64,000 nt of DNA from assembly GCA_963833985.1 (NCBI GenBank), contig CAWIAD010000002.1:5216001-5280000 (forward strand). The letters run 5' to 3'. The translations under genes and the position numbers were made by a program. The stretch's first letter is position 1. Each line of letters begins with the position of its first letter. Under the pieces are notes generated by a model. It made no database searches. It was given only the letters and a program-made list of their open reading frames with translations, and was not told the origin of the DNA. Of the stretch, positions 1 through 55,151 are shown in pieces. The stretch comes from an uncultured Planctomycetaceae bacterium (GTDB taxonomy: Bacteria; Planctomycetota; Planctomycetia; Isosphaerales; Isosphaeraceae).

Positions 1-292
1 GCCGGAATTGCTTGCCGGGGCCAGCCTGGTTCTCATCGGCAAGGACGGTCTGACCGTGGTCCTGGCCGGCGGGCCCCCACCGCGGCGCGTGAGCGTCCGG
101 CATGTGGCCCAGGGAACGACCGGCCAGGGCCTGCGCCGCTCGGCGATCTCCACCCGGCTACCGCAGGTGGATGCCGCCGAACTGGCGCGGGGCGTGGCAC
201 GGCACGTCGCGACCCAGGGCGCTCTTGCCTCGAACTTGCCGGCGGAACTTCAAAGCGAGCTGGCCAAGGTCTGGCCGGCCCGGGAATCTTGA
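1..292 (+). CDS. flhB: C-terminal (cytoplasmic) part of a divergent FlhB/EscU-family export switch protein, 5'-truncated by the window edge
   Basis: Frame 2 reads PELLAGASLVLIGKDGLTVVL...VAQG...LRRSA...LPQVDAAELARGV, which lines up by eye with the FlhB-C pattern (ADVVITNPTHYAVAL...VVAKG...IRE.A...VPIVENPPLARAL); lies directly upstream of flhA. NPTH is absent. Confidence 0.6.
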   Translation, partial: PELLAGASLVLIGKDGLTVVLAGGPPPRRVSVRHVAQGTTGQGLRRSAISTRLPQVDAAELARGVARHVATQGALASNLPAELQSELAKVWPARES

Positions 293-678
293 CCTCCGCA
301 GTTAAAGAAAGCATTGAGCGCGAGACGCGAGATCCGCGACCAAAAGACAAATAGAGCGAGTACCGGGGCGATTGCGGGGGCCATATCGGCTCAATTAAAC
401 TGCCCACGAACGCCGCATTCGCTCTGGACAGTGGCGGACCTCGGCGGTAGATTTCCCGCACACATCAGCCGAGAGCCAGCTCTGGCTTCCCTTGATCAAT
501 ATTCACCAACCCGGCGCGGGCCGGTGTTTCGCTGGACGGTCTTCGCGAAGAGTCTCGGGAGCGCGGTTCCAGGCGACGGCGAGGTCGCCGGCGGTTCCGG
601 CCTGTCGACCGGGTGCTACGGCCTTGCGAAACCGACCGGCCGCCGTACGTGGATTTCAAAGGCCTGTGGAGGACGCGG

Positions 679-2925
679 ATGCCTGGCACGACGTCGAGTT
701 CACCGGCCTCGGGATGGAGCCAGGCCCTGGGATTGGCCCTGCCGGTCGTGATCATCGGCGCGATCCTCGTGTTCGTGATTCCCATCCCGCCCGTGCTGCT
801 CGACGTCCTGCTCTCGGCCAACCTGACGCTGGCGGTGGTGGTGCTGCTCACCACCCTGGCGATCCGCACGCCGCAGGAATTCAGCGCCTTCCCGACGATT
901 CTCCTGACCACGACCCTGACACGGCTGGTGCTCAACGTGGCGACGACGCGTCTGGTGCTCACTCATGGTGGGGATGACGGGCTAGACGCTGCCGGCGGCG
1001 TGATCCGCTCGTTCGGTGAATTCGTGGCGGGCGACCAGGTGCTCGTGGGCGTGATCCTGTTCTCGATCCTCGTGGTGATCCAGTTCGTGGTGATCACGCG
1101 CGGGGCGACCCGGATCAGCGAGGTGGCGGCGCGGTTCATGCTCGACGGTCTGCCCGGCCGGCAGATGGCCATCGACGCCGACCTGCATGCCGGACTCATC
1201 GACCAGCATGAGGCGCACAAGCGGCGCGACGAGGTTTATCGCCAGGCCGACTTCTTCGGCGCCATGGACGGTGCCGGCAAGTTCGTCCGCGGCGATGCCA
1301 TCGCCGGTGTCGTGATCCTGATGGTGAACATCTCGGGCGGATTGTTCCTGGGGATCGTGAACCACCAGATGAGCCTGGGCGAGGCGGTCAATGTCTTCAC
1401 CAAGCTGACCATTGGGGACGGCCTGGTGAGCCAGGTGCCAGCCTTCCTGATCTCACTGGCGGCGGGCCTGATCGTGACCCGCTCGTCGTCGTCGACCGAC
1501 CTGGGCCATGACGTGGTCAGCCAGCTCTTCAGCAGGCGGGGCGTGATGGGAACGGCCGCGGCCTTCCTCGGTTTGCTCCTGTTCACGCCGCTTCCCAAGC
1601 TGCCGCTCATGGTGCTTGCGGGGGGGCTGGCGACCGCGGCACTCTGGCTGCGGACGAATCCGGACGAGACCGCGACACAGGAACCGCACACACACCCTGC
1701 CCCGGCGCGGCAGCGCGAGCGGCGAACGGGTGACGGAGGCGGAAACGCAGCGCGAAGGGAGAATGCCGGAGCGACGCGGGTGGCTGAGCGTGCCACGTTG
1801 GTCCCCAAGGAAAGCTCCAGCATCGCCGGTCCTAACTCCGAGGGCATGGACGATCTCTTGCACGTCGATCCGCTGGAGCTGGAGATCGGGTTCCGGCTCA
1901 TCGGCCTGGCCGATCCGACGCGTGGAGGAGACCTGCTGGAGCGGCTGCGCACGGTCCGGCAACAGGTGGCTCGCGAGCTCGGTCTGATCGTCCCGCAGGT
2001 GCGGATTCATGATCAGATCAGCCTTGCGCCCAACGATTACCGGGTCAAGATCCGGGGGACGGTCGTCGGTCAGGGAACGGCCTACACCGGCCGGCTACTC
2101 GCGATTCCGCCGGCGGGGATGGTGTCACGGCCCGACGGCCGCGACGGGGTCGACCCGGTCACCGGCCTGCCGGCGGTCTGGATTCACGCGGACGGCCGCG
2201 AAGTCGCCGAGCTGGCGGGCTGCCAGATCCTTGAGGCGTCGGCCGTGGTGGCCGGACATTTCGGTGAGATCGTCCGCAACCACGCCGACGAACTCTTGAC
2301 GCGTGAGCAGATCGAGCGGCTGCTCGACCGCGTGAAAACCTCGGCGCCCACCCTGGCCGCCGAGGTGGTGCCGGCCCTGCTCCGCCCCGGAGAGCTACAG
2401 CGCGTGCTCCAGAACCTGCTCCGCGAGCGCGTGAGCATCCGCGACCTGGAAACCATTCTCGAAGCCCTGGCGGTCCATGCCGGCCGGACCAAGGACATCG
2501 ACGTGCTCACCGAGCACGCGCGTCAGAGCGTGGCCCGGCAGATCACCGAGAGCTACCGTGGCGGTGACGGCCGGCTGCGTGTGGTGACGTTGTCGCGGGC
2601 GCTTGACGCCCGGCTCACGGCAGCGGGCAGCCAGACCGACGTCCGACCGACCGAGGCACTGGGCGATGAGACTGCCCGGAGCATCGTCCGCGCCGTGGCG
2701 TACGCGGTGGGCAACCTGATCGAGGCCGGCCTGGCGCCCTTGATCCTGACATCGACGCCCGCCCGGGCCGTGCTCAAGGACCTGACGCGGGCCGACCTGC
2801 CCCGGCTGGTCGTGCTCAGCCAGCGGGAGATCCCGCGCGACACGCCGGTCGAGGTGCTGGGAACCGTGCTCGAGGAAGAGCCGGAAAGCGTGACCACCTT
2901 CTCCACCACCGAGGCCATGGCCTGA
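679..2925 (+). CDS. flhA: Flagellar export gate protein FlhA
   Basis: FHIPEP motifs RISEVAARFMLDGLPGRQMAIDADL and FFGAMDGAGKFVRGDAIAG; N-terminal TM segments; C-terminal LQNLLRERVSIRDLETILE; GGAGGA before ATG 679. Confidence 0.96.
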   Translation: MPGTTSSSPASGWSQALGLALPVVIIGAILVFVIPIPPVLLDVLLSANLTLAVVVLLTTLAIRTPQEFSAFPTILLTTTLTRLVLNVATTRLVLTHGGDDGLDAAGGVIRSFGEFVAGDQVLVGVILFSILVVIQFVVITRGATRISEVAARFMLDGLPGRQMAIDADLHAGLIDQHEAHKRRDEVYRQADFFGAMDGAGKFVRGDAIAGVVILMVNISGGLFLGIVNHQMSLGEAVNVFTKLTIGDGLVSQVPAFLISLAAGLIVTRSSSSTDLGHDVVSQLFSRRGVMGTAAAFLGLLLFTPLPKLPLMVLAGGLATAALWLRTNPDETATQEPHTHPAPARQRERRTGDGGGNAARRENAGATRVAERATLVPKESSSIAGPNSEGMDDLLHVDPLELEIGFRLIGLADPTRGGDLLERLRTVRQQVARELGLIVPQVRIHDQISLAPNDYRVKIRGTVVGQGTAYTGRLLAIPPAGMVSRPDGRDGVDPVTGLPAVWIHADGREVAELAGCQILEASAVVAGHFGEIVRNHADELLTREQIERLLDRVKTSAPTLAAEVVPALLRPGELQRVLQNLLRERVSIRDLETILEALAVHAGRTKDIDVLTEHARQSVARQITESYRGGDGRLRVVTLSRALDARLTAAGSQTDVRPTEALGDETARSIVRAVAYAVGNLIEAGLAPLILTSTPARAVLKDLTRADLPRLVVLSQREIPRDTPVEVLGTVLEEEPESVTTFSTTEAMA

Positions 2926-2949
2926 GCCATGAAACCAGAGAGTCCGAGC

Positions 2950-4094
2950 ATGGGAGCAAGAACCTACAGGGCCAGAACCATGAAAGAGGCGCTGGCGCGG
3001 GTGCGCCGGGACCTCGGCGGCGACGCCGTCATCCTGGCCTCGCGTGAGGTGCGCAGGCGGAGACTCTTCGGGCTCGGCGCAGGAGCTGATCGAGGTGACT
3101 GCCTCTTCCACCATGCCCGCGGACCTGCCGTCCCTGCTGGGTCCGGAAGTCGCCGGACCGGCGCGACTCGCTCGGTTCCACGCTCTCGGCCGGTGCCCAG
3201 GCGCGGTTTGGAACACAGCTCAGCCAGCTTCATGCCATGGTGGAATCGCTGAGCCGGCAAGGCAGAATTGACCATCTGCTGCCGGACCTTCCCGGCGACC
3301 TGGTTCCGACGTACGCCCGGCTGGTCGAGGCGGATGTCCCGGAAGCGCTGGCCCGCCGGCTGGTCCGGTACGTGGCCGAGGGACTGGAGGATAGCCCGCA
3401 AGGCAACCGGCCGTCCATCGACCGGGCGCTCTGCGAGGCGGTCGAGCAATGCATCGCGATCGCGCCGCCGATCCGCGCGGTCGTGGGAACCCGGCGGATG
3501 GTGGCCCTGGTGGGGCCGACCGGGGTGGGCAAGACGACCACGGTGGCCAAGCTGGCGGCCAACTTCAAGCTCGTCCATGGTTTGCGGGTGGGCCTGGTCA
3601 CCGTGGATACGTACCGGATCGCCGCGGTGGAGCAACTGAAGACCTACGCCGAGATCATCGACCTGCCGCTGGCCGTGGCCAACGATCCAGGCCAGATGCA
3701 GCAGGCGGTGGATGAGCTGGGCGCGGTGGACATGGTCTTCATCGACACCACGGGGAGGAGCCCCCGCGACGAGATCAAGATCCGCGAACTGGCCGACTTC
3801 ATGGCACAGGCGCGGCCGGACGAGGTCCACCTGGTGCTCAGCGCGGGGGCTGCGGAGCGCACGCTCCGCTCGGCCATCGAGCGCTTCGCCGCCGTCAGGG
3901 CCGACCGCCTGATCTTGACCAAGCTTGACGAGGCTGAAGGCCTGGGAGCGATCCTGGGCGTACTGGGCCAGATGGATCGTCCGGTCAGCTACCTGACCAC
4001 GGGCCAGGCCGTGCCGGAAGACATCGAGCCGGCGGACCGCAAGCGGCTGGCTCGACTGATCCTCGGAATGGAGGCGATCGGTTGCGAACCCTGA
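2950..4094 (+). CDS. flhF: Flagellar SRP-type GTPase FlhF (two apparent frameshifts, near 3080 and ~3200)
   Basis: N-terminus RTYRARTMKEALARVRRDLGGDAVIL; GTPase motifs GPTGVGKTTT, DTYRIAAVEQL, DTTGRS, TKLDE, TGQAVPEDI; directly follows flhA. Confidence 0.92.
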
Positions 4095-4148
4095 TTTGTA
4101 CGAGGGGCCCGAAGCGCGGCCGGACAGGCCGGGAGGGGAGGTGGCACG

Positions 4149-4388
4149 ATGTCCGACCAGGCGGACAGTCTGCGGCAGCTCGTCCGGGCCCAGCGCCAGT
4201 GGCGTGAGCTCGCCCTGCAAGAGCAGTCCGCGGCACTCGCGTCCGGACCGTTCGCGAAGTCCGCAATGCCGCAACTGCGGACCGCCGGGCATGACCGGCC
4301 GTCCGGTCCCGGCCACGCGGTCGGCCAGTTCGTGGGGCGGGCGGTGCGCTGGGCCGTGGGCCGCCGGGGCGTTCGGAAATGTTCTTGA
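4149..4388 (+). CDS. 79-aa FlhG/FleN remnant: N-terminal DQAxxLR activator segment only, no MinD ATPase domain
   Basis: MSDQADSLRQLV carries the FlhG DQAxxLR motif; GGAGG-rich RBS upstream; occupies the flhG position between flhF and fliA. Confidence 0.65.
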   Translation: MSDQADSLRQLVRAQRQWRELALQEQSAALASGPFAKSAMPQLRTAGHDRPSGPGHAVGQFVGRAVRWAVGRRGVRKCS

Positions 4389-4697
4389 TGGTTCGTGGCG
4401 TGAAACGGACCGTCACACAGGAGAAAGGAGAATCGGCATGGAAGTCTCGATTTTCGGGTTGGCGTGAGAGTGCTGCTCAAGCCGGTTGGTCGGGTTGTCC
4501 GATATTCAATCAGGATCAAGTTCCTTGAACGGCGGGAGGTCAGAGGGCGGGCAAGCCACGGGCCGGGGCACCGGCGTCGCGGCCACCCAGAAATGGCGAC
4601 GCAGCACTGAGTGTTTCGCAACCACGTCGTGATCGTCGCTGGCCTGCCCTTGACACATGGATGTGGGTCCTTCCGCTCAGGCGACACGGAGGTCAGG

Positions 4698-5474
4698 ATG
4701 TCAACCAAGGTGGATGTGGATGTAGCCGAACTCTGGCGTGAGTTCAAGGAACACCCCACCACGGAATTACGGAACCAACTGGTCGAGCGCTACTTGCCTC
4801 TGGTCAAGTACAACGCCGAACGGATCTGGCAGCGGCTGCCCGAGGGGGTCGATCTGGACGATCTGATCTCCGCAGGGGTGTTTGGGTTGATGGACGCCAT
4901 CGATGCGTTCGACCTCGGCCGCGGCGTCAAGTTCGAGACCTATTGTGTTCCGCGGATTCGCGGCGCCATGCTCGATGAGCTGCGCACTATGGACTGGGTT
5001 CCGCGCCTGGTCCGCTCCAAGGCCACCAAGATGGAGGAGGCGCGCAAGGAGCTGGAAGCGCGCCATGGCCGCCCGCCCACCGATGCCGAGCTCGCCGCGC
5101 AGCTCGGTCTGCCCATGGAAGAATATGAGAAGATGGCGCTCGACTCCAACGCGGTCGGGCTGATCAGCCTGAACAAGAAGTGGTACGAGACCGACAGCTA
5201 CAAGGATGTCCGCGAAATCGACATCCTCGAGGATAAGAAAGGGGAAGACCCCACCCGCCGGCTCCAGCGCAAAGACCTGATGCGCATGGTCACCAAGGGG
5301 TTGAACCGCAATGAGCGGCTCATCATTATTCTTTACTATTATGAAGAGTTGACGATGAAGGAGATCGGCGCCACGCTGGACCTCAGCGAGTCGCGGGTTT
5401 CCCAGATGCACTCCTCGATCATTCAGCGGCTGCAATCTCAGCTCTCGACCCGGCGGCCCGAGTTCGGCACCTGA
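4698..5474 (+). CDS. fliA: FliA/WhiG family RNA polymerase sigma-28 factor
   Basis: RNQLVERYLPLVKY, DDLISAGVFGLMDAIDAFD, RIRGAMLDELRTMDWVPR, LYYYEELTMKEIG..LDLSESRVSQMH; GGAGG before ATG 4698. Confidence 0.96.
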   Translation: MSTKVDVDVAELWREFKEHPTTELRNQLVERYLPLVKYNAERIWQRLPEGVDLDDLISAGVFGLMDAIDAFDLGRGVKFETYCVPRIRGAMLDELRTMDWVPRLVRSKATKMEEARKELEARHGRPPTDAELAAQLGLPMEEYEKMALDSNAVGLISLNKKWYETDSYKDVREIDILEDKKGEDPTRRLQRKDLMRMVTKGLNRNERLIIILYYYEELTMKEIGATLDLSESRVSQMHSSIIQRLQSQLSTRRPEFGT

Positions 5475-5782
5475 AACGGGTGGCCTGGCAGCAGATCCGT
5501 CGTGGCCGACCTGGCTGCGGCGGACTTGTGCCGCGGCTTCAAGGGGCGCTGCGAACGCCAGAGCGCGGCGACGAGGATCAGCAAGACGGCGATCCCCACG
5601 ATCCAGAGGACGGCCTTCACGCCTGACGAGAGGGGGACGGCGGGTGTCTCGCGGAGATAGACGGGGAACGGCTTGACGGCCGGACGATCGGCCGCGGCCG
5701 CGTTCGGATCGACGAACAACTCCTGCTCTCGCTTCTTGATCGAGAGCTCCTGCTCGGGCATGTTCCGCGCTTCCGAACTCAT
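5438..5782 (-). CDS. Small single-pass membrane protein, unknown function
   Basis: ORF with one clear TM segment (VKAVLWIVGIAVLLILVAALW) after a charged N-terminus. Confidence 0.6.
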   Translation of the reverse strand: MSSEARNMPEQELSIKKREQELFVDPNAAAADRPAVKPFPVYLRETPAVPLSSGVKAVLWIVGIAVLLILVAALWRSQRPLKPRHKSAAARSATTDLLPGHPFQVPNSGRRVES

Positions 5783-10356: not shown

Positions 10357-13300
10357 CTACTTCACGGCCCGGCCGATCGGCTCCAGCAGTGAGCCGAGCC
10401 AGTACCCAAGCGACGGGAACGCAGTGAGCACGAAGCCCACGACGGGCACCGCATACGGCAGCAGGTTGGACATCAGCGTCTGATCGAGCTTGAAGCTGTT
10501 GGGCGCCTTGCGAGAGACGCGGCTCACAAAGTCGCTCTTCTCGATTTGCAGGAGCACCAGCAGGGTGGCCAGGACGCCGGCCGCGATGAACCCCCAGATG
10601 ATGATCGACATCAGTTTCAGGGGGTGAAACGGGTACCAGGCCACCGCCAGCAGCAAGAGCAGAGGCCCATAGATGAGCTGGGCCGACATGCTGCGGAGCG
10701 GATGGGCGAACTGGCTGACCAGGTAGACAACCCTCAACGCCAGGAGCTGCTCGGCCAGGTCGAGCCACTGGCTGGTGGCGGCATCGGTGTCTGGCGTGAC
10801 GGGACCACCCGCTTCGCCCTTGGCCTGACCGTCGTCGGCCATGGTTCCGCCGTAGGCCTGCTCCAGGCTGCGCCTTGGCCACGCCAGGTTCATGACCGGC
10901 CCGACACAGGCGTTCGACACGATCTCGAACCGCTCCACATCGGAGGTGGGACCGCGGGCCGCGACCGCAGCCCGGAGCGCTTCCTGAGCGGGCAGCCGCG
11001 CGGCGTCGGCTTGCTCGGCCGCGGGCGCCCAGCCCAGGACCAGCCGGCATTGCTGAAGGGGGATCTCCAGGTCCATGTCCTCCTGCAATGAGGTCCGCAG
11101 GAACCGGCCGAACTTCGCGGCCACGCGGGGAGGGATCTGGTCGAAGGCCGAAGCCATCGGCAGCAGGCTGATCTGGCGAAAGAGCTGGAACAGCGACCGC
11201 CAGAGCCAGAGGTAACGCACCTGCGAGTAGACCAGCAGCAGCAGGTAGGCCAGGAGCGCCAGGATGATCAGCAGATCGAACCGCGCACCCTCGGGCGTGG
11301 GAATGAACCGCGGCCAGATCACGCCCCAGACCAGGACCAACAGCCCGGCCACGGCCGAGACCACCAGCCCGGCCACGGGCAGGTTCTTCGAGACCAGCAC
11401 GGTCACCGGGTACTCCAGCAAGTCGACGCACAGCCGGAACCGGGCATTGAGCCGCGGAATGACGCGCTTCCAGGGGAAGTCGCCAGGCATCGTCACACCC
11501 GCCAGTGAGATCAACTCCGAACCTCTGCGCAGCAGCGGATAGGCCCTGAGCCGTTTGAGCTCGAGATAGCACCACCAGAAGATCGCCGCGCCGATGCAGG
11601 TGACCGGCACGATGGGTGAGATTCCCCCCAGCAGATGGGCGCTGCGGTCGAGCGCCAGCCAGGAATTCGGCAGCTCCGGGCGCAACAGCGCGAACTCGAA
11701 GAGACGGATGACAATGAAGGCGATTCCGACCACGACCACCGAGAGAGTCATGACCCTGTAGAACAGGCTCTCGAAGATCAGCCAGCGGTCCACTTGCACC
11801 GGCCCTTTGCCCGCGGTCCGCTTGCCGGAGCTGTTCCGGCGAATCGCCTCGCGCAGGCAAACCAGCAAGGGGACGAGCAGCCAGAGCATGGTCAGGATGC
11901 CCAGCATGGCCAGTGCGTAGACGTCCCAGCTCACCATCAGCCTGGCCTCCCGATCCCCGGCGGGCGCCACGCGGGGCGGTATCGCCACATCCAGGGGCGT
12001 GGCCAGCATGCCGTACGGTACCGCCAGAGCGACCAGCAACAGCGAAGTCAAGAACAGATGCTTGCGCGTGCTCGACTGGCCGGAGACCACGAACCGGCTG
12101 AGAACCGGGTCGAACCAGCTTGTCAGCGCCCGCGGCTCGCCGTCTTTCCGGGCACGCAGGTTCGTGTAAAGCACCAACGCCGCAACCATGAACGTGACGA
12201 AGGTGCCCACGCAGAAGACCAGTTTCCAGATCAGTGGAAAATCGTACTCGAATTTGAGCGAGATGACCGTCTCGGCCTGCGGGTCCAGGCTGACGATGGG
12301 GGGGATGAGGGCCTCGCCCCGCGCCCGCTGTTCCGTCTCGCAATGACTGAGCGAGCGGACCGCGAGCGGCCAGATCCGGCCCAGCCCCACCTGGTTGATC
12401 CAGATCTGCGGACGGCGGTTCACCGAATCAAGGAACGTGGCCACGAAGGGTCGGCCATAAACCAGGAAGTCCTCGGCCTTGGCGGTATCGACGACCAGGC
12501 GATTGGCCCGGTCGGGATCGCTCACCGCGTTCAGCAACACCAGCGCGGCGTTGTACCGGCCGACGTCGAACTCGCTGGCAAAGAGACGCCGCTCGATGGA
12601 TCCCTGGAACGGATACGACCAGACCTGGGCACGGGCGTCCAGCGGGTACGACGAGGCGATGATGGTGCCCCGAAAGTCGAGTGTGAACTGCGGATCGGAG
12701 TAGCGCAGGTCGTTGCCCACCAGGATGATCTGCACATCCGGGCAATTCTCCCGGACCAGCCGGGTGAGGTAGATCACGTCCAGGATATCGGTCGCCACGA
12801 TACCCAGGTAACGGACGTCCTCGTGGGCGATCGTCGTGAGGATGTTCGAGAGGATCAGACTGTCGGTGGCGACAGTCATTTTGGGCGAAAGCGCGGGCAG
12901 GCGGTCGGTCTGGCGGCCCGTCGGTGGATCGAAGGGAATCGAGACGCGGCTCTTGGCCGCAGCGCCTGTGCCCGAGCTGGCGCTGGCCGCTTCGCTGGCT
13001 CGAACCTGGGCGATCTGAGACGGAAAGGGAATCGAGATGATCTGTTTTGACTGGTTGCTGGTGCCGCTGGTGCCATAGGTGTTGCCCACCACGGAGCCGT
13101 AACCCGATCCGGTCTCGACCAGCAGTGCAATCTTGCCCGCGGGCAGCGCGGGGCTGGAGGGATCGTGCCGGCGGGCAGGGTTGGCCAGGAAGCGGTAGAG
13201 CGCGGCCAGCAGAATGTCGTCGGGAATCACGCTGGCGGAGTAGAGGGCACGAGCGGGCGAGGCGTTGCGTTCGAACGAGGATTTGTCGATGGCAGTGGCC

Positions 13301-14247
13301 GATCCCGAACAGACCCAGATGGGGGCCTCGCGGCGCTCCTGCCGGGCTTCGGCCCACATTCGCAGCACGCGCGCCATCGAATCGCCAGTGCCGGAGAACG
13401 TCGGCGCCAGGACGCGGATGACCGGCTCGCGATCCAGCGACTTGCTGTTTCGCTGGTAGTCGAGCGACCAGGCGATATTCAGGCTCGTCGTGAGCGCCTC
13501 CTGCTCGATGCCCCACGTCGGCGTCTCGCCGACGATGAGCAAGAGCAGCAGTTCCTGGGGAGCGGCGAGTTGGCCGGGTTGCGGCGGAGAGCGGTCGATC
13601 CGGAACAAAATGGATCCGGGCTGACGCTCATACCGAGCACCGCGGAGAGCGGCCAGGACGGCCGCGGGGGGAGCGGGGCCTGGTGCTGCCGGCGTGGCGC
13701 CTGCCCCGGAAGCAGCAGCGGAAGCAGGAACACTGGCGGCAGCAGGGGGCGCGGAGGCGGCCGGCGCGCCGCCGCTGGAGGAGGAGGCATCAAGCCACGG
13801 CAGGCGGAAACGATCGAGCGTGTATCCCTCGGACTCGATGGCCCGCTGGATCGCCTCGGTCGCCATGTCGAAGTCATAGCCCAGGCGCGACTCGGTCGGG
13901 TCAGGAAGCGAGGCAATCACCGTGGTGACGCGGTATCCGCCCAGCGCGCCCGCGAGCTCTTCGAGTGAGCCTGGCGTCTGGCGCAGGTTGAGGAACCTCA
14001 GAAGCGGTTCGCACGCCTCCAGCGCGTCGGCCTCGCTGGCGTGTGGGGGAGGGCCGGAGAGGACCCCGGCCGGTGCCGTGGACTGGCCCGAGCCATCTCC
14101 CTGCGCCGAACCACCTCCGGAACGCGCCGAGAGGTTGTACACGCCGGCGGTCGCCGCGAGGATCAGCATCAGGGCAAGCACGGGCGTCGGCCCGCGGGTG
14201 GCAATCGCCTTGCCCAGGTCGTTGGAATCCGAATCAGCCATCGTCAC
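10357..14247 (-). CDS. Large (1296 aa) membrane protein: N-terminal anchor, large extracytoplasmic region, ~10-11 TM segments
   Basis: Uninterrupted long ORF; hydrophobic segments cluster in the C-terminal half; soluble region has alternating alpha/beta motifs. Confidence 0.85.
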   Translation of the reverse strand: MTMADSDSNDLGKAIATRGPTPVLALMLILAATAGVYNLSARSGGGSAQGDGSGQSTAPAGVLSGPPPHASEADALEACEPLLRFLNLRQTPGSLEELAGALGGYRVTTVIASLPDPTESRLGYDFDMATEAIQRAIESEGYTLDRFRLPWLDASSSSGGAPAASAPPAAASVPASAAASGAGATPAAPGPAPPAAVLAALRGARYERQPGSILFRIDRSPPQPGQLAAPQELLLLLIVGETPTWGIEQEALTTSLNIAWSLDYQRNSKSLDREPVIRVLAPTFSGTGDSMARVLRMWAEARQERREAPIWVCSGSATAIDKSSFERNASPARALYSASVIPDDILLAALYRFLANPARRHDPSSPALPAGKIALLVETGSGYGSVVGNTYGTSGTSNQSKQIISIPFPSQIAQVRASEAASASSGTGAAAKSRVSIPFDPPTGRQTDRLPALSPKMTVATDSLILSNILTTIAHEDVRYLGIVATDILDVIYLTRLVRENCPDVQIILVGNDLRYSDPQFTLDFRGTIIASSYPLDARAQVWSYPFQGSIERRLFASEFDVGRYNAALVLLNAVSDPDRANRLVVDTAKAEDFLVYGRPFVATFLDSVNRRPQIWINQVGLGRIWPLAVRSLSHCETEQRARGEALIPPIVSLDPQAETVISLKFEYDFPLIWKLVFCVGTFVTFMVAALVLYTNLRARKDGEPRALTSWFDPVLSRFVVSGQSSTRKHLFLTSLLLVALAVPYGMLATPLDVAIPPRVAPAGDREARLMVSWDVYALAMLGILTMLWLLVPLLVCLREAIRRNSSGKRTAGKGPVQVDRWLIFESLFYRVMTLSVVVVGIAFIVIRLFEFALLRPELPNSWLALDRSAHLLGGISPIVPVTCIGAAIFWWCYLELKRLRAYPLLRRGSELISLAGVTMPGDFPWKRVIPRLNARFRLCVDLLEYPVTVLVSKNLPVAGLVVSAVAGLLVLVWGVIWPRFIPTPEGARFDLLIILALLAYLLLLVYSQVRYLWLWRSLFQLFRQISLLPMASAFDQIPPRVAAKFGRFLRTSLQEDMDLEIPLQQCRLVLGWAPAAEQADAARLPAQEALRAAVAARGPTSDVERFEIVSNACVGPVMNLAWPRRSLEQAYGGTMADDGQAKGEAGGPVTPDTDAATSQWLDLAEQLLALRVVYLVSQFAHPLRSMSAQLIYGPLLLLLAVAWYPFHPLKLMSIIIWGFIAAGVLATLLVLLQIEKSDFVSRVSRKAPNSFKLDQTLMSNLLPYAVPVVGFVLTAFPSLGYWLGSLLEPIGRAVK

Positions 14248-19692: not shown

Positions 19693-20723
19693 ATGAATCC
19701 GCTGCTCCGCGAGCTCTTCTGCTGGAAGTTCGTGTTTTACTCCCTGCTCTTGCCCGTGCTTCGCCGGCTGGGTCCGGTACGCTGCGATGCGGCCCTGCGT
19801 CGCCTGGGCCAGGCCCTGGCGGTGCTCTGTCCGGGACGAAAAAAGCGGTTGCAAGCCGCGCTCATGGCGGTTCAACCGGCGCTCGAACGGGATGCACCGG
19901 CCGCGGCGCTCTGGCTTGACCTGGCCGCCGGCTCGGCGCGGTTCCAGGCGCGCGACTGCACGCTGGAAGGATCCTCGGAGAAGGCCCTCTGGCGCGGTTC
20001 GATGTCACGGGAAATGAGCGCCTTCAGCAAGCTCTGGAGGCCGGCCGCGGCGCGATTCTCGTCGGCAGCCACCACGGTGCGTACATTGCCGGCCTGCACT
20101 GGCTGGCCCGCGCCCGGTTGCCCCTGCGCGCCCTCATCCAGCGTCCACGGCACGTCTCGCGTGAATTGCGCGCGTGGTTCGATGAAGCCAGACCCCCGCA
20201 TCCGCAGAGCGAGATGTTCCTGCGCCGCGATTTGACGCCCGAGGAGGGCATCAAGCTGCTGTTCCGCGCCCGTGCCGCCCTGCGCGACGGCCAGGCGCTT
20301 TATCTCTGCGGGGACATCCCCTGGAACGGTCTGAACACGCGCCAGGGAACGCTGCTGGGCCAGCCGCTGAACTTCCTGGCCGTCTGGACCGAGCTCGCCG
20401 TACTCACGCGGGCTCTCGTGTTTTACGTGTTCTGTGCGCATCGTCCCGGCGGCAGGTTCCGCCTGGAGATCGAGGCGGCCGGCCAGGTTCACGCCGGGCA
20501 GGAGAACGACGCCATGGCCGATTATCTCAGGGAGCTCGAGGCGCGGATCGCCCACGATCCGACTTCGGCCGTCGCCCACCTGCTCTGGCCCTGCTTCAGC
20601 GGCTCGCCCGCAGCGAGGGCCAGCCGCCGAGCAACGCGGGGCCCGGCCGGCTTCCGTCCCGGCCGCCGCCAGCCCGCCCGTTTTATCGTCCCGAGAGTGG
20701 ATCGCCGCGACACGCCGGCTTGA
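19693..20723 (+). CDS. LpxL/LABLAT-like (lysophospholipid) acyltransferase, apparent frameshift near 19990
   Basis: After the shift reads RFDVTGNERLQQALEAGRGAILVGSHHGAY...LRDGQALYLCGD...TLLGQ...LAVLTRA, the layout of lipid A late acyltransferases. Confidence 0.7.
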
Positions 20724-24304: not shown

Positions 24305-25495
24305 ATGTCGAGTGCTTCATCGTTGCGCCCCGATCCCGATCCGTTCGCCTCGATGTTCGAGACCGTCTCCGCACTGACGCAGCGGATCAAGGATGCCCTG
24401 GAGACCGACTTCACGGAGATCGCCCTGCACGGCGAGATCACGAACCTGGCCCGGCCGAAGTCGGGGCATCTCTACTTCAGCCTCAGGGACCAGTCCGCGG
24501 CGATCCGCGGGGTGATGTGGAGAGGCGACGCCCAGCGCCTGGCCTTCGACGTCTCGGACGGCCTGGCCGTGCGCTTGCTCGGCCGGCTCACGGTCTACCC
24601 TCCCCGTGGCGAGTATCAGGTCGTCGTCCGCCACCTCGAGCCCGATGGCCTGGGTGCACTCGAGCTGGCTTTTCGCCGGCTGCACGCCCGGCTTGCGGCC
24701 GAGGGGCTCTTCGATTCCGCGCGGAAGCGGCCGCTGCCGCGTTACCCGGGGCGCATCGTCATCGTCACCAGCCCGACCGGTGCCGCGGTTCGCGACCTGC
24801 TCCAGGTGACCGGCCGGCGCTGGAACCCCACGGAGATTCTCATCGCGCCGGCTCGCGTTCAGGGCAACGGTGCAGGCGCCGAGATCGCTGCCGCCATCAT
24901 GCTGGCCAACCAGGTCAAGGACGCCGAGCTCGTGATCATCGCCCGTGGGGGCGGGTCCGCCGAGGACCTCTGGGCCTTCAACGAGGAGATCGTGGTCCGC
25001 ACCATCGCGGCGTCGCGCCTGCCGACAATCTCCGCCGTGGGCCACGAGATCGACGTCACCCTGGCTGACCTGGCCGCTGACCGGCGCGCCCTCACACCCA
25101 GCGAGGCCGGCGAGCTCGCCGTGCCCGATGCCCGCGAGGTTGCCATGCACCTCGACCGCCTCGCCGAGCGCATCCGCATCCTCTCCGAGGCTCGCCTCTG
25201 CGAGGCGCGTGCCCGCCTCGACCAGCTTGGAAAGATCGCCGAGCAGGCCATGCACCGAACCCTCGAAGCGCGCCGACACCTCTTGACCCGCCTGGCCGCT
25301 TCGCTCGAGGCCCTCAGCCCCCTGGCCGTGCTCGCCCGCGGCTACAGCCTCACCTTCCAGGCCGACAAAACCACACTCGTCCGATCCGCCAGCGACGTTC
25401 GACCCGATGACCTCATCCACACCCGCCTGGCCTCTGGTCAGGTCACTTCCCGGGTGATCTCATCCATCTCACCTGGCACTCCCTCCACTTCCTGA
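24305..25495 (+). CDS. xseA: Exodeoxyribonuclease VII large subunit
   Basis: GEITN...SGHLYFSL, VTSPTGAAVRD, RGGGSAEDLWAFNEE, SAVGHEID, TPSEAGE, LSPLAVLARGYS. Confidence 0.96.
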   Translation: MSSASSLRPDPDPFASMFETVSALTQRIKDALETDFTEIALHGEITNLARPKSGHLYFSLRDQSAAIRGVMWRGDAQRLAFDVSDGLAVRLLGRLTVYPPRGEYQVVVRHLEPDGLGALELAFRRLHARLAAEGLFDSARKRPLPRYPGRIVIVTSPTGAAVRDLLQVTGRRWNPTEILIAPARVQGNGAGAEIAAAIMLANQVKDAELVIIARGGGSAEDLWAFNEEIVVRTIAASRLPTISAVGHEIDVTLADLAADRRALTPSEAGELAVPDAREVAMHLDRLAERIRILSEARLCEARARLDQLGKIAEQAMHRTLEARRHLLTRLAASLEALSPLAVLARGYSLTFQADKTTLVRSASDVRPDDLIHTRLASGQVTSRVISSISPGTPSTS

Positions 25496-25712
25496 ACTGA
25501 TACGGCTGCTGGAGCACCGAGTTAGCACTCTGGATAATCTCTAGCAGTCGCCACGACTGAATACGATTTGCACGGCCTGGAAGGATAGGTATTATTGATA
25601 GCCTACTTCAGGCAAGCCATCATCCCCTTCGTGCATCGAGACGGGTCCCACAGCGGAAGCGTACGCTTCCTGGCGGCACTCGCCAGGAATCCACACCACG
25701 GGAGACAGAACG

Positions 25713-28667
25713 ATGAGTCGTGATTCCGGAATTCCGGTCCACACGGGTTGGTTCGGACTGCGGCGCCCTTCTTCTTCAAGGGCACTTGCTGGCGGGAGGC
25801 GTTTGCCCCGGCGACGGCCTTGCGAGTTCCTGGACTTGCTGGAGGAGCGCACGCTTCTTTCCACGATCACTCTCGATATCGCCGGTGGCGCTCTCAGCTA
25901 CGCCGAGACAGGCACTCCCGGATCGGGCAGCGTGCTCACGGTGTCCACCACGGGCAAGGCCGGCAGCTACACGTTCAGTGAGTCGACTCAACCCATCACG
26001 CTTGGACCCGGTGCGGTCCTGGCCGGCTGGACGGGAAGCGGGACCGACACCGTCACCGGGCCGGATAGCTCCGTGACATCGATCGCGATCACGAAGCTCG
26101 GTCAAGATAACATCAACATCGAATCCGTGGATGCGAGCACGGTCGTTGATGCCGGTTCAGGAACCACCAGCGTGCACGTTGGCAATGCCGGCAGTCTGGC
26201 CGGCATCCAGGCCGCGATCACCGCCAGGTCCACCGGGGGCAGCGGCGTTCTGAGCGTGGACGATTCGAGCAACTCCGCGAGCCGCACCTTCAGTGTGACC
26301 AGCACCCAGGTCAACGGCAATGCTCTCGCCGACCCGATCACGTTCGGCACCGGCATCAGCAACGTGACGATCAAAGGGGGAACCGGCGACGATACGTTCA
26401 ATGTCAGCAGCTTCGGCACCGGCAGCCTGTCGAGTTACAACTTGCAGGGCGGCACCGGCACGAACACGCTGAACGTGACTTCCACCCTGGCCGGACTGAC
26501 CTTCACGAACCCAGGTCAGATCGTGGCCAGTCCGTCGCTGATTCTCAACTACGCCAACCTCGCGAGCGTCCACATCACCGAGCCGGCGACCGCACCTTCG
26601 GGCACGGCCGCAACGATCAAGGGCGTTGAAGGCACGCCAGTGAACAACCAGGTCGTCGCAACCTTCACCGACAGCGACCTGGGCGTGACCCCGACCGACT
26701 TCGCGGCCTCGATCAACTGGGGCGACAGCACGGCGGCTTCCAGCGGCCAGATCGTTTCCACCGGACCCGGCGCATTCGAAGTACTGGGAAGCCATACGTT
26801 TGCGGCCACGGGAACATTTCCGGTCAACGTCACGCTGAGCGCGCTGGGCGCAACCGGTTCGACCACCGTCGGCGGCACAACCATCGTGGTGACGACCACC
26901 GGCCCGGTCGCGTCCACGCCCAGTCCGATTGTATCGTCGGCCACGGTGGCCGCGGCGCCGCTGTCCGCGCAGGGTGCGCCGATCGCTGGTTACCAGGGAC
27001 TGCCGCTGAGTGATTACCCGGTCGTCAGCTCTCCATCGGCGGACGTCCTGGTCGCGACGTTCACAGACACCGGGACCATTGGAACTCCGGCGGATTACAC
27101 GGCCAGCATCAACTGGGGGGACGGCAGCGCCGCAACTTCAGCCACGCGCATCGTCTCCGCCGGAACCGCCAACGGAACGGTCTTCAGCGTCTACGGCGAC
27201 CACACGTACGCGGGTCTCGGCCCTTATCAGGTGGTCACCACAATCACCAAGACCGCGTCGGGCGCCCAGGCGGTTGCCACGTCCCAGGCGACCATCGTCG
27301 ATGCGCCGCTTTCAGGAACGACCACGCCGACGTTGAGCGTCACGGAGGGCATGTACTTCACGGGGACCCTCGCCTTGCTTACCGACACGAATCCCTCATC
27401 CAGCCCGGATCATTTCCGGATCATGATCGACTGGGGAGACGGCTCGCCCGAGTCGGCCGGCATCCTGGTGGCGAGCCCTTCGTCGGGGGGAAGCGGTGTT
27501 TCTTACGCTGTTGATGGAAGCCACACCTACGCCGACTCGCTCCCCACCGGCGCTCCGGGAACCGGCTTGCCGGGACCCCAGACCGGCAACTATCTGATCC
27601 ATGTTTATATCACCGAGACCGGCGGCGCGACGCTGAACCTGACCAATAACGCACTCGTCACGGACCGGGCCTTGACCCTCACCGGCAAGCTCAACCCCTC
27701 CAGCGACTCCGGCATCTCGAACAGCGACAACATCACAAACGTGGTGCAGCCGAACTTCATCGGCACGACCAGCGAGCCGGATGCCACGGTTTCGCTCTAC
27801 GCCACGGCGGCCGGCTCATCCTCGCCGGTCCTCCTGGGCACAACCCGGTCCGACTCCAGCGACGCCTGGAGCATCACTTCGAGCATGGCTCTGTCCGACG
27901 GCAGCTACGCCATCACCGCGCAGGCCACCGACAGCTCGGGGCACACAATCAGCAACATGACGACCATCGTGTCCAGCCTGGTGATCGACACGGTCGGACC
28001 GAAGGTGACGAACATCTACTTCGACCGCATCCACGGCCAGGTGCAGATCACCTTCCAGGATTTCGGCGGGGTGGGCAACGCCGGTGTGGGTATGAACCAG
28101 TCCACCGTGGTCGATGCCAACAACTACGCCTTCTCGCTCATCTACTCGCCGTTCAACCCCAAGCGTGTACCCAGGTTCCTGGTGACCTCGATCACCGTCA
28201 GCCCGGGCACGCAGACCGGCGCCCAGGCGGCGACCGTCGTCATCAACCACAACCGGTACCTCCGCGGGGGCCACTTCCTGTTCACGGCCCGCTCGGTGAG
28301 TCCGACGAACCTGACGGGCATCCAGGATATCGCGGGCAATGCGCTGGACGGCGAGTTCTACAGCTATTTCCCGTCGGGCAACAACCACCCGGGCGGCGAC
28401 TTTGTGGCCGAGATTGACGCTGAACACCATAAGGTCTACGCGCCGCGATCCGTGATCGGCTCGGCCACGCCCGTGAGTCCTCCCGGCACGCCGGGAACCT
28501 CCAGCCATATTCCGACCTACCAGCCGGGCCGTTCCAGGTACGGGACTGCCGCGGTCAAGCTCGCCAGCAAGCAGGTCGTGAACACAACTCCCAGGGCAAC
28601 GGCCACTCCGGTCGCGCGGGCCAGCCTGGCGCATGTACGGAGAGAGCTTCCGGCCAGGCGCCGTTGA
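25713..28667 (+). CDS. Secreted Thr/Ser/Gly-rich surface protein with PKD-like and bacterial Ig-like repeats (putative adhesin)
   Basis: Planctomycete export motif RRRP...LLEERTLLS; three (A/I)xI(N/D)WGD...G.HT(F/Y)A repeats; SDSGISNSDNITN Ig-like module; GIQDIAGNALDGEF. Confidence 0.85.
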   Translation: MSRDSGIPVHTGWFGLRRPSSSRALAGGRRLPRRRPCEFLDLLEERTLLSTITLDIAGGALSYAETGTPGSGSVLTVSTTGKAGSYTFSESTQPITLGPGAVLAGWTGSGTDTVTGPDSSVTSIAITKLGQDNINIESVDASTVVDAGSGTTSVHVGNAGSLAGIQAAITARSTGGSGVLSVDDSSNSASRTFSVTSTQVNGNALADPITFGTGISNVTIKGGTGDDTFNVSSFGTGSLSSYNLQGGTGTNTLNVTSTLAGLTFTNPGQIVASPSLILNYANLASVHITEPATAPSGTAATIKGVEGTPVNNQVVATFTDSDLGVTPTDFAASINWGDSTAASSGQIVSTGPGAFEVLGSHTFAATGTFPVNVTLSALGATGSTTVGGTTIVVTTTGPVASTPSPIVSSATVAAAPLSAQGAPIAGYQGLPLSDYPVVSSPSADVLVATFTDTGTIGTPADYTASINWGDGSAATSATRIVSAGTANGTVFSVYGDHTYAGLGPYQVVTTITKTASGAQAVATSQATIVDAPLSGTTTPTLSVTEGMYFTGTLALLTDTNPSSSPDHFRIMIDWGDGSPESAGILVASPSSGGSGVSYAVDGSHTYADSLPTGAPGTGLPGPQTGNYLIHVYITETGGATLNLTNNALVTDRALTLTGKLNPSSDSGISNSDNITNVVQPNFIGTTSEPDATVSLYATAAGSSSPVLLGTTRSDSSDAWSITSSMALSDGSYAITAQATDSSGHTISNMTTIVSSLVIDTVGPKVTNIYFDRIHGQVQITFQDFGGVGNAGVGMNQSTVVDANNYAFSLIYSPFNPKRVPRFLVTSITVSPGTQTGAQAATVVINHNRYLRGGHFLFTARSVSPTNLTGIQDIAGNALDGEFYSYFPSGNNHPGGDFVAEIDAEHHKVYAPRSVIGSATPVSPPGTPGTSSHIPTYQPGRSRYGTAAVKLASKQVVNTTPRATATPVARASLAHVRRELPARRR

Positions 28668-28825
28668 GCTCGGGCCGTCGAGTGCCGCGCGTCGCGTCCG
28701 GCCAGGGGTGGTCACCGCTCCCTTGGCCGGATCGCCTCCGGAGAGTACCTTGAGAATGGATCGAACCTGAAACCCAAGCGGTATCCCCTGAACGCGCCGG
28801 AACGCGCTTTGTCCGCGAGTGAACC

Positions 28826-29227
28826 ATGCCCGAGGAACCTGAGCCTTGCTTCGAGGCCGCTGTCAGCCAGCTCGAGCAGATCGTCGCGTCGCTGGAGCGC
28901 GGCGAGCCCGAACTGGCGGCGGCCCTGAGCAAGTACGAGACGGGCATCCGGCTGCTCAGCCGGTGCTATGCGCTGCTGGAGCGTGCGGAACGCTCCGTGG
29001 CGCTGCTGACGGGCGTCGATGCCGCCGGGAGCCCGAAGACGGTCGCGTTCGACTCCTCTGCAACCATGGGTGTTCAGAGCGAGAAGGCCGCGCCAGCTCC
29101 ACCAGTGCAGAAGGCACCCGCCACCGAAGACATCCTCGAGCCGGTCATCGCACCGAAGCCGGCGCGTCCACGGCGTACCAGGCCGCTGGCCGAGCCGGAG
29201 GCCGATGTTCTCGAACCGCCCTTCTAG
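28826..29227 (+). CDS. xseB: Exodeoxyribonuclease VII small subunit
   Basis: FEAAVSQLEQIVASLERG...L..YETGIRL...C...LERAE; upstream of ispA. Confidence 0.92.
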   Translation: MPEEPEPCFEAAVSQLEQIVASLERGEPELAAALSKYETGIRLLSRCYALLERAERSVALLTGVDAAGSPKTVAFDSSATMGVQSEKAAPAPPVQKAPATEDILEPVIAPKPARPRRTRPLAEPEADVLEPPF

Positions 29228-54081: not shown

Positions 54082-55151
54082 ATGGACTCATGGAAGAGTT
54101 TCGTCGCGTCAGCGTCCGGCTTCCTGCACAGGCACGTGCTCTTGCTCGTGGTGGCAAGCTATGCACTGGCAGCCACCTGGCCGGGCATAGGAATGTGGAT
54201 CAAGGATACGAGCCTCCTTGAATCCGCCGTGGGTCCGGTGCGGATTCACGCCACCATCCCGGCGCTCTTGCTGGCGTTCTTGCTGGGCAGCGCGGGAATG
54301 CGGGTGCGCGGCGAGCGGATGCGGGCGATGGTCCGGCGCCCGGAATGATCGTCGCCGGAATCCTGGCCAACCTGTCAGTCCCGGTGTTTTACCTCGTCCT
54401 GCTCATTCCCGTGCTCGGCTGCTGGCACAACCCGGATGAAGTGTCGACGATCGTGATCGGCCTGGCGCTCGTGGCGTCGATGCCGGTGGCCGGCTCATCT
54501 ACCGGATGGGCACAGCATGCCGGGGCCGACATGGCCGTCAGCCTGGGGCTTGTGCTGGTGTCCACGCTCATCAGCCCGCTGGTCACGCCCCTGGTGCTCA
54601 AGTTCCTGGGAACGGTTTCACCCACTCAGGCAGCGACGGCTCTCCATCAAGTGTCCGGCAGCAAGACGGGCGAGTTCCTCCTGGTCTGGGTGCTGGCCCC
54701 GTCGCTCCTGGGTATCGCGGTGCGGCAGATCATCCCCGAAAGACGCATGGTCCAGCTGGAGCAGTTGCTCAAGCCGCTGGCCACACTTTGCCTGCTGGTG
54801 CTCTGCTACGCCAACGCGTCCGCCTGCCTGCCGCAAGCCCTGCACAGCCAGGACTGGGACTTCCTGGGTGCCGTGGTCGTTGCGGTGCTGGGCATGTGCA
54901 CGGTCACCTTCACGATGGGATACACCGTCGGCAAGGTTTTTCACGCTGACCGGCAAGCCCGTACCGCACTCATGTACGGGCTGGGGATGAACAACAACGG
55001 CACGGGACTGGTACTGGCGTCGGCGGCTCTGGCGTCCCGGCCGATCGTGCTCCTGCCCATCATCATCTACAACCTGGGACAGCACCTGGTCGCCGGCTGC
55101 GTGCATGGGCTCACAGCGGCGGAGCACGACGCTCCGCGCCGAGCCGATTGA
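54082..55151 (+). CDS. Bile acid:sodium symporter (BASS) family transporter (apparent frameshift near 54345)
   Basis: GLALVASMPVAGSS, LVSTLISPLVTP, GMNNNGTGLVLA, PIIIYNLGQH; ~10 TM segments. Confidence 0.85.

What the first reader, a model, noticed from the sequence alone, without database searches (positions are those of the whole stretch)
1..5474. Re-purposed flagellar type III export module: intact gate, GTPase and sigma factor, but eroded switch and counter
Seen: flhA and fliA are full-length with canonical motifs, and flhF keeps all its GTPase motifs, while both regulatory neighbours are altered (FlhB-C without NPTH, FlhG reduced to a peptide). Established: flhB-flhA-flhF-flhG-fliA is the conserved flagellar order, and described Isosphaeraceae are not flagellated swimmers. 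Inference: selective retention with targeted erosion suggests a filament-less, flagellum-derived polar secretion or landmark machine (e.g. for budding, adhesion or holdfast export) rather than random decay.
Basis: partly seen in the sequence, partly recalled or inferred. Interest (0 to 1): 0.8.

Follow-up and report, generated by a model that had tools for sequence, protein, structure and literature searches.

The report
Flagellum-less export gate with sigma-28 switch
A family of non-swimming bacteria lacks the flagellum's filament, rod, hook and export ATPase, yet keeps its membrane export gate together with the transcription factor sigma-28 and its inhibitor FlgM, and likely uses the gate as a switch that would remove the inhibitor and turn on predicted cell-surface genes.

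Summary
The window catches the tail of fliF-fliG'-fliO-fliP-fliQ-fliR-flhB-flhA-flhF-miniflhG-fliA. The state is family-wide (Isosphaeraceae): FlhA 59 of 59 genomes, FliI 0 of 59, flagellin 0 of 74, FliE 0 of 40, rod/hook 0 of 24, while the anti-sigma FlgM, encoded elsewhere, is in 59 of 59. FlhB, FlhA, FlhF, FliA, FliF and FliPQR are under purifying selection. FlhB lost NPTH (0 of 120 homologues) but keeps its predicted fold; FliG lost its FliM-binding middle domain; mini-FlhG is the FlhF-activating DQAxxLR helix. Sigma-28-type promoters precede flgM (26 of 29), fliA (16 of 22) and non-flagellar envelope genes. The gate+FliA+FlgM set without ATPase or rod recurs in other planctomycete lineages, which are not one clade (AU p=0.0003). 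Best reading (0.5): the gate removes FlgM to release sigma-28, a flagellum-free switch. Against: uncleavable FlhB blocks FlgM export in Salmonella, and five FlhA-less relatives keep sigma-28. No description found in ten literature searches; the scan had not noted it. New variant of a known kind; interest 0.72.

The parts
1..292 (+). 3' end of flhB (345 aa; starts 745 bases before the window). NPTH autocleavage site replaced (Asn to Gly); C-terminal domain predicted to keep the FlhB/EscU fold. Upstream, outside the window, lie fliF (560 aa), fliG without middle domain (about 166 aa core), fliO, fliP, fliQ, fliR (G000:C2:5210389-5215222)
425..453 (+). sigma-70-type promoter-like element before flhA (TGGACA-N17-TAGATT), shared words in about half of 23 family loci; predicted, not tested
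679..2925 (+). flhA, full length, gate motifs conserved
   Evidence: dN/dS 0.12-0.26
2950..4094 (+). flhF (SRP-type GTPase) with N-terminal FliG-interacting region and complete G1-G5; two frameshifts in the 5' part in this assembly (about 3079 and 3122-3147), likely sequencing errors
   Evidence: dN/dS 0.10-0.29
4149..4388 (+). mini-flhG, 79 aa: N-terminal DQAxxLR activator helix plus a C-terminal amphipathic stretch resembling the membrane-targeting helix; the MinD-type ATPase body is deleted
   Evidence: motif function from PMC12826062 passages
4477..4504 (+). predicted sigma-28 promoter before fliA (TCAA-N17-TCCGATA), i.e. autoregulation
   Evidence: 16 of 22 family loci; top score in the genome
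4698..5474 (+). fliA (sigma-28). Its anti-sigma flgM (94 aa) lies outside the window at G000:C2:2555896-2556180 behind the same promoter motif
   Evidence: dN/dS 0.00-0.10

Best explanation
This is a flagellum-derived membrane module (FliF, a short FliG, FliO, FliP, FliQ, FliR, FlhB, FlhA, FlhF, mini-FlhG) kept without filament, rod, hook or export ATPase, together with sigma-28 and its inhibitor FlgM; the gate likely serves to remove FlgM from sigma-28 and would thereby switch on a predicted non-flagellar set of cell-envelope genes. Shown: gene content, family-wide retention, purifying selection, lost FlhB cleavage site, internal deletions in FliG and FlhG, conserved promoter motif. Inferred: the ring and gate assemble in the inner membrane; FlhF (through FliG-FliF) places them, with mini-FlhG acting as a bare GTPase activator; FlgM is removed either by proton-driven export into the periplasm (my slight preference, about 55:45) or by binding to the FlhA cytoplasmic ring as proposed for Helicobacter pylori; free sigma-28 then transcribes fliA (positive loop), flgM (negative loop), a second sigma-70-family factor and envelope genes. 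With one substrate and no rod or hook there is nothing to switch between, which explains why the FlhB cleavage site, FliK, FliE and the FliM-binding parts of FliG and FlhG could go.
For: FlgM over the Pfam cut-off in G000 and matched in 59 of 59 family genomes, alongside FlhA 59 of 59 and FliI 0 of 59; it is the only known flagellar export substrate found. The same kit (FlhA, FliP, FliA where the locus was long enough, FlgM; no FliI, no rod) occurs in G025, G040, G027, G222, G135, G147, G153, G184, G198 of five other family codes (FliP was checked in 7 of these 9), and these do not form one clade with the family (AU p 0.00026). In G153, G184, G198 flhA, fliA and flgM are neighbours on one strand. 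FlgM's N-terminal part is almost as conserved as its sigma-binding part in the family (0.76 vs 0.82; 0.40 vs 0.61 and 0.43 vs 0.63 in two mostly flagellated families). Promoter motif before flgM in 26 of 29 and fliA in 16 of 22 family genomes, and before flagellin in flagellated G031. FlhA FHIPEP loop conserved in 20 of 20 family rows. dN/dS 0.10-0.41 for FliF, FliG, FliP, FliR, FlhB, FlhA, FlhF. Precedents: FlgM relief by FlhA-C without secretion is reported for H. pylori (review PMC3930126, passages); FliHIJ can be dispensable at high proton motive force (review PMC7911332, passages).
Against: FliA is kept at 73-78% identity in 5 of 5 tested FlhA-less genomes of family f5, and a FlgM-like C-terminus in 4 of 4 tested: sigma-28 and FlgM can persist without any gate, so their co-occurrence with the gate is not specific. 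In Salmonella the uncleavable FlhB(N269A) cannot export late substrates such as FlgM (PMC7911332); here the site is gone in 120 of 120 homologues and FlhB stops short of most of the C-terminal domain in G017, G025, G040. FliE and FliI/FliH/FliJ, which help open and feed the gate, were not found. The flhA-fliA-flgM neighbourhood may be partly inherited (flgM lies about 5 kb behind fliA in flagellated G031). The N-terminal conservation of FlgM is not corrected for the different depth of the three groups. The promoter motif was derived from flgM upstream regions, so the 26 of 29 is partly circular, and about half of the genome-wide sites are expected by chance (27 vs 10-18). No expression, localisation or binding data.
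Confidence: 0.5

Rival explanations
1. The gate is a re-purposed secretion or polar-landmark machine with new, non-flagellar substrates or partners; sigma-28 and FlgM are kept for reasons of their own.
For: Gate, MS ring and the FlhF positioning pair are intact and selected; sigma-28/FlgM survive without the gate in family f5; non-flagellated Lysobacter secretes non-flagellar proteins through retained gate genes (PMC7688988, passages).
Against: No ATPase, no conduit beyond the inner membrane, no candidate substrate gene conserved in the operon; Lysobacter keeps FliI and FlgD; three independent small-genome relatives kept flhA-fliA-flgM but dropped flhF from the locus, which a landmark would need.
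Confidence: 0.2
2. The retained genes are a CORE-only platform for membrane nanotubes or protrusions.
For: FliO, FliP, FliQ, FliR, FlhB, FlhA are exactly the CORE set; species with CORE but few other flagellar genes were proposed to use it for nanotubes (PMC6456723, passages).
Against: Does not explain retention of FliF, FliG, FlhF, mini-FlhG, FliA and FlgM or the promoter loops; that paper's table scores Isosphaera pallida only for FliP and FlhA and does not name it as CORE-only.
Confidence: 0.12
3. The assembled ring and gate act as a checkpoint sensed by another regulator (as MS ring, rotor and gate activate FlgSR in Campylobacter), not through FlgM.
For: FliF, FliG N- and C-domains and the gate are the parts kept, the same parts named in the abstract of PMC3760246 (search listing).
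Against: The kinase and sigma-54 activator that head the operon in flagellated G031 have no counterpart next to the G000 operon, and no conserved sigma-54 site was found before fliF or flhA.
Confidence: 0.08
4. Slow decay: only fliA matters; the other genes are remnants on their way out.
For: Long branches of reduced FlhA proteins; nested losses (FlhG, FlhF, FlhB C-domain); full loss of the gate in most of family f5 (FlhA 16 of 54); mini-FlhG linker and FliO evolve fast (dN/dS up to 0.83).
Against: FlhA in 59 of 59 genomes of about 27 genus codes; dN/dS 0.1-0.4 in nine pairs; the operon is split by insertions in G004, G008, G013 yet all parts persist; precise domain deletions recur in FlhG in at least three places of the tree; conserved promoter-like elements.
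Confidence: 0.1

Closest known systems
Flagellar FlgM-sigma-28 checkpoint (Salmonella type; review PMC7911332, passages)
   Same: FliPQR-FlhB-FlhA gate in a FliF ring, FliA, FlgM, sigma-28 promoters before flgM and fliA
   Different: No rod, hook, FliK, FliI/H/J, flagellin or motor; FlhB cannot self-cleave; predicted targets are not flagellar
Helicobacter pylori FlgM-FlhA-C relief (review PMC3930126, passages; the primary paper was not read)
   Same: Offers a way to free sigma-28 through FlhA without secretion
   Different: H. pylori builds a complete flagellum; here the triad stands alone
Chlamydiaceae cryptic flagellar genes flhA, fliF, fliI with sigma-28 (PMC10597470 and PMC5604735, passages; PMC2830194, abstract start)
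   Same: Non-flagellated PVC bacteria keeping FlhA, FliF and sigma-28; flhA (CT060) and fliA (CT061) have consecutive locus numbers; release of sigma-28 by secretion of an anti-sigma was speculated there
   Different: Chlamydia keeps FliI and an injectisome, and no anti-sigma-28 is identified; here FlgM is present, FliI is absent and the cells are free-living
CORE nanotube platform (PMC6456723, passages and supplement rows)
   Same: FliO, FliP, FliQ, FliR, FlhB, FlhA kept without the rest of the flagellum
   Different: Also FliF, short FliG, FlhF, mini-FlhG, FliA, FlgM; no evidence of tubes
Lysobacter enzymogenes OH11 residual flagellar T3SS (PMC7688988, passages)
   Same: Gate genes functional in a non-flagellated bacterium
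   Different: OH11 keeps FliI and FlgD and secretes to the medium
FlhF-FlhG positioning switch (review PMC12826062, passages)
   Same: FlhF with all GTPase motifs; DQAxxLR activator helix; C-terminal amphipathic stretch
   Different: ATPase body deleted in 14 of 27 family loci, and lacking the Walker A lysine in 10 of 10 full-length copies

Membership tests
Bacterial flagellum | Export gate FliPQR-FlhB-FlhA and MS ring FliF | tested here: met
Bacterial flagellum | Flagellin | tested here: not met
   PF00669 0 of 74 family genomes
Bacterial flagellum | Rod and hook proteins, FliE | tested here: not met
   PF06429 0 of 24 relatives and G000; PF02049 0 of 40
Bacterial flagellum | Stator MotA/MotB | tested here: not met
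   G000 only: tblastn, phmmer and profile from flagellated planctomycetes
Type III secretion system (flagellar or injectisome) | Export ATPase FliI/SctN | tested here: not met
   PF18269 0 of 59; best hits in G000 are F1 ATPase subunits
Type III secretion system (flagellar or injectisome) | Self-cleaving FlhB/SctU NPTH site | tested here: not met
   0 of 120 homologues; fold kept in the model
Type III secretion system (flagellar or injectisome) | Proton-driven protein export | not testable with these tools
   charged FlhA motifs kept; activity needs an assay
FlgM-sigma-28 checkpoint | FliA and FlgM genes with sigma-28 promoters | tested here: met
FlgM-sigma-28 checkpoint | FlgM removal depends on the export apparatus | not testable with these tools
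   inferred from co-retention; FlhA-less relatives keep FliA and a FlgM-like protein
CORE nanotube platform | FliO, FliP, FliQ, FliR, FlhB, FlhA present | tested here: met
CORE nanotube platform | CORE-dependent nanotubes | not testable with these tools
   needs microscopy
FlhG (MinD-type ATPase) | DQAxxLR activator helix | tested here: met
FlhG (MinD-type ATPase) | ATPase domain with Walker A | tested here: not met
   79 aa only; no full FlhG elsewhere in G000
FlhG (MinD-type ATPase) | C-terminal membrane-targeting helix | tested here: inconclusive
   amphipathic stretch (moment 0.74 in G000) but profile match only weak (E 0.1-1.4) in 3 of 14 mini forms

The most novel reading that the evidence does not exclude
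A stand-alone type III gate whose only substrate is an anti-sigma factor: a secretion-operated developmental switch, distilled from the flagellum several times independently in planctomycetes (and perhaps in Chlamydia), placed at one pole by FlhF with a membrane-bound mini-FlhG as its activator, so that mother cell and bud differ in sigma-28 activity and envelope programme.
Probability: 0.25. Interest if true: 0.9.

Novelty: new variant of a known kind. Interest (0 to 1): 0.72.

Why it matters
It would show that the flagellar export gate can be kept purely as a gene-regulatory device, without ATPase, rod or filament, and it gives a free-living, cultured system in which to test a question left open in Chlamydia (why FlhA, FliF and sigma-28 are kept without a flagellum; PMC10597470 speculates on a secreted anti-sigma that nobody has found) and for CORE-only bacteria. 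It also supplies natural minimal versions of three well-studied parts: an uncleavable FlhB, a FliG without its middle domain and a FlhG cut down to its GTPase-activating helix, and a first candidate sigma-28 regulon for the budding life cycle of Isosphaeraceae.

Tried and rejected
Public reads for window 600-5500: none was listed, so the flhF frameshifts could not be checked against reads and there is no expression evidence either way. A complex prediction of FliA, FlgM and the FlhA cytoplasmic domain could not be run (tool not available), so binding is untested. A FliE-profile hit in G000 was rejected as HAMP-like repeats. MinD/ParA-type hits elsewhere in G000 carry no DQAxxLR motif and are not FlhG. 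G100, G205, G235 lacked FliI but have rod and hook genes and were dropped from the reduced set; G251 has one rod-type gene and was left out of the clade test group. No conserved sigma-54 or sigma-28 site before fliF or flhA. No Rfam family in the window. The mini-FlhG has no useful match among solved structures by sequence. The careful FlhA tree did not finish; quick trees were used; G126 and G236 fell out of the first tree by the length filter. Earlier scan notes: one unrelated note on an internal flhA promoter, none by sequence or by other words. Papers read without bearing: PMC10746217, PMC13514998, PMC13092639 (passages), 10.1101/2021.09.03.458937 (first part of the text; hat-like structure, not formed by FliF), 10.64898/2026.07.27.740770 (abstract and outline).
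Full report
What is there. The window is G000:C2:5216001-5280000 of a 10.16-Mb, two-contig genome. Database names and record titles of close homologues point to Isosphaeraceae. The finding covers the tail of a longer operon: fliF (560 aa), a short fliG, fliO, fliP, fliQ, fliR and flhB lie in the 5.6 kb before base 1, then flhA (679-2925), flhF (2950-4094), a 79-aa ORF (4149-4388) and fliA (4698-5474) (Pfam). flhF is split over three frames near its 5' end. It is intact in three close relatives, and 11 of 61 orthologous test loci of this assembly gave multi-frame hits, about 7 by my reading true indels, so I treat the shifts as likely assembly errors; no reads were listed to check this.

What is missing. 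In G000, queries and profiles from flagellated planctomycetes found no flagellin, rod/hook proteins, FlgB, FlgD, FlgH, FliD, FliH, FliJ, FliK, FliL, MotA or MotB; FliI queries hit only F1-ATPase subunits, and no full FlhG exists elsewhere. Across the family: FlhA 59 of 59 genomes at 90% completeness or more, FliI C-domain 0 of 59, flagellin 0 of 74, FliE 0 of 40, and among 24 relatives of mixed completeness rod/hook domain 0, FliF 22, FliG-C 22, a FliM/N-C protein 18. These are 'not found in those searched'. As a contrast, family f5 mostly loses the gate with the ATPase (FlhA 16 of 54, FliI 15 of 54). Ivanova et al. noted only 'poor representation' of flagellar genes and no swarmers in this family (PMC5352709, passages).

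The altered parts are shaped, not eroded. FlhB: the NPTE of flagellated G031 aligns to x-G-x-x-G in the family; 0 of 120 homologues have NPTH or NPTE; the AlphaFold model (mean pLDDT 83.5) has an alpha/beta C-domain whose best matches are FlhB in the FliPQR-FlhB complex (E 8e-4) and EscU/YscU/FlhB C-domains (E 0.03-0.1). FliG is a 166-aa core joining the N-terminal and C-terminal domains; residues about 61-230 of G031 FliG, the middle domain that binds FliM (recalled), are gone. FliF aligns end to end with flagellated FliF (HHalign probability 100) including the C-terminal helix, with a poorly conserved stretch at 279-400. FlhG: of 27 family loci with both flhF and fliA, 14 carry a 59-94-aa form, 10 a full-length form, 1 a truncated form in a frameshift-rich assembly and 2 none. 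All mini forms start with DQAxxLR, the helix whose glutamine stimulates FlhF GTPase (PMC12826062, passages); many end in an amphipathic stretch like the full-length C-terminus, though the profile match is weak. None of the 10 full-length copies has the Walker A lysine. On the FlhA tree the mini forms fall in at least three places. Nei-Gojobori dN/dS over nine pairs within the genus: FliA 0.00-0.10, FlhA 0.12-0.26, FlhF 0.10-0.29, FlhB 0.14-0.35, FliP 0.13-0.32, FliR 0.14-0.39, FliF 0.26-0.40, FliG 0.15-0.41, FliO 0.27-0.83, mini-FlhG 0.38-0.83 where it could be aligned.

FlgM is encoded at G000:C2:2555896-2556180 and matched in 59 of 59 family genomes. A sigma-28-type motif, T(C/T)AA-N16/17-(G/T)(C/T)CGATA, first seen upstream of flgM, lies 186-242 bases before flgM in 26 of 29 family genomes (partly circular) and, independently, before fliA in 16 of 22 (window 4477-4504) and before flagellin in flagellated G031. 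It is enriched over controls: 32 vs 7-18 at other spacings in G000, 21 vs 3 and 29 vs 6 in G004 and G053, less so in G236 (37 vs 18), G043 (12 vs 6), G101 (59 vs 41) and G031 (19 vs 12). Mapping downstream genes (all 21 sites of G004, 27 of 29 of G053, 12 of 12 of G043, 18 of 37 of G236, 15 of 59 of G101, 15 of 19 of G031; the head of the output was cut) gave shared targets with a site in G000 too: an outer-membrane efflux-family lipoprotein, a sigma-70-family factor, enolase, a thioredoxin-trypsin protein and proteins without Pfam match, plus a cyclophilin-Ig protein family. Five of the 27 top-scoring G000 genes carry the planctomycete LExRxLL surface-protein motif (name recalled) against 81 of 8044 genes (Fisher p 6e-6); about half of the 27 are expected by chance. 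The predicted regulon is envelope-directed and has no flagellar gene.

Convergence. Outside the family, G025, G040, G027, G222, G135, G147, G153, G184 and G198 have FlhA and FlgM but no FliI and no rod/hook match; FliP was found in the 7 checked. G025 and G040 keep nearly the same operon; G153, G184, G198 and G222 have flhA directly before fliA, the first three with flgM next. On a quick FlhA tree the f4 members group with flagellated G037 and G198 with flagellated f8/f11 rows; holding the 15 reduced rows together is rejected (AU p 0.00026; long branches are involved, and the group was defined by gene content after I had seen the tree). These are draft genomes of 97-100% completeness, so single absences may be gaps.

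How it most likely works. Shown: the parts list and its conservation. Inferred: FliF rings the FliPQR-FlhB-FlhA gate; FlhF, which captures FliG-FliF in polar flagellates, positions it and is turned off by mini-FlhG; the gate removes FlgM; sigma-28 amplifies itself, makes more FlgM and expresses an envelope programme. Export without the ATPase is possible at high proton motive force (PMC7911332) and the FlhA charged motifs are intact; relief through FlhA-C without secretion is reported for H. pylori (PMC3930126). Against: uncleavable FlhB blocks FlgM export in Salmonella; FlhB is C-terminally truncated in G017, G025, G040; and FliA (5 of 5) and a FlgM-like protein (4 of 4) persist in FlhA-less f5 genomes, so sigma-28 has a gate-independent life in this class and the link to the gate is an inference. 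I put 0.5 on this reading, 0.2 on secretion or landmark with unknown cargo, 0.12 on a nanotube platform, 0.08 on another checkpoint, 0.1 on decay.

Relation to what is known. It fails membership of the flagellum and of a complete type III system, but works, on this reading, like the FlgM checkpoint. Gate genes without flagella are known in CORE-only species (PMC6456723, passages; its table lists Isosphaera pallida with FliP and FlhA only; one road to that paper's supplements gave no answer, the mirror did), Lysobacter (PMC7688988) and Chlamydiaceae (PMC5604735), where release of sigma-28 by a secreted, unidentified anti-sigma has been speculated (PMC10597470). Ten full-text searches of open-licence papers and preprints found no description of this module, of the gate-FliA-FlgM set in planctomycetes or of a mini-FlhG; subscription papers and preprint supplements were not covered.

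Verdict. Real, family-wide, selected and apparently undescribed; a new variant of a known kind with a testable mechanism. Interest 0.72.

Noticed in passing
G000:C2:3115530-3117020 (-), locus L315: Stand-alone 496-aa protein with a FliN/FliM C-terminal domain and a weak FliM match, no EIDAL-type motif; a FliMN_C match exists in 18 of 24 relatives although FliG lacks its middle domain.
   Followed up: partly
G000:C2:2556404-2558023 (+), locus L316: A type II/IV secretion ATPase (PF00437) lies directly behind flgM on the same strand; conservation of this link not checked.
   Followed up: no
L175-L184 (family f5): FliA at 73-78% identity and a shortened FlgM-like protein persist in genomes without FlhA: sigma-28 seems to be a class-wide non-flagellar regulator in planctomycetes.
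   Followed up: partly
L041, L043, L045, L047, L048, L131, L134-L136, L138: Full-length FlhG of other family genera lacks the Walker A lysine; FlhG of flagellated G026 and G031 is also degenerate at Walker A.
   Followed up: partly
L050:14720-14968 (G031) and orthologues: A small membrane-protein gene sits between flhG and fliA in several flagellated planctomycetes and is absent from G000.
   Followed up: no
L022 (G035), L125 (G100): These FlhA proteins form a separate long branch from other planctomycete FlhA, hinting at a second, acquired flagellar system.
   Followed up: no
window 24323-29224: xseA and xseB are separated by a 943-aa Ig-like surface protein gene inside the xseA-xseB-ispA-dxs-NAD kinase cluster.
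   Followed up: no
window 10360-14241 (-): 1294-aa predicted membrane protein with no Pfam match at E 1e-5.
   Followed up: no
window 19693-20720, 54082-55148, 55913-57456: Adjacent ORF pairs that look like single genes split by indels (e.g. SBF transporter, GH39), in line with assembly errors.
   Followed up: no
G000 genome-wide: 13 CheW-domain matches in a genome without stator or flagellin; two sets of F1-ATPase genes (C1 near 2.16 Mb, C2 near 1.33 Mb).
   Followed up: no
G000:C2:5209323-5209781 (+), locus L306: Small Cys/His/Lys-rich protein just upstream of fliF, with a sigma-28-like site before it in G000 (one mismatch) and G053.
   Followed up: partly
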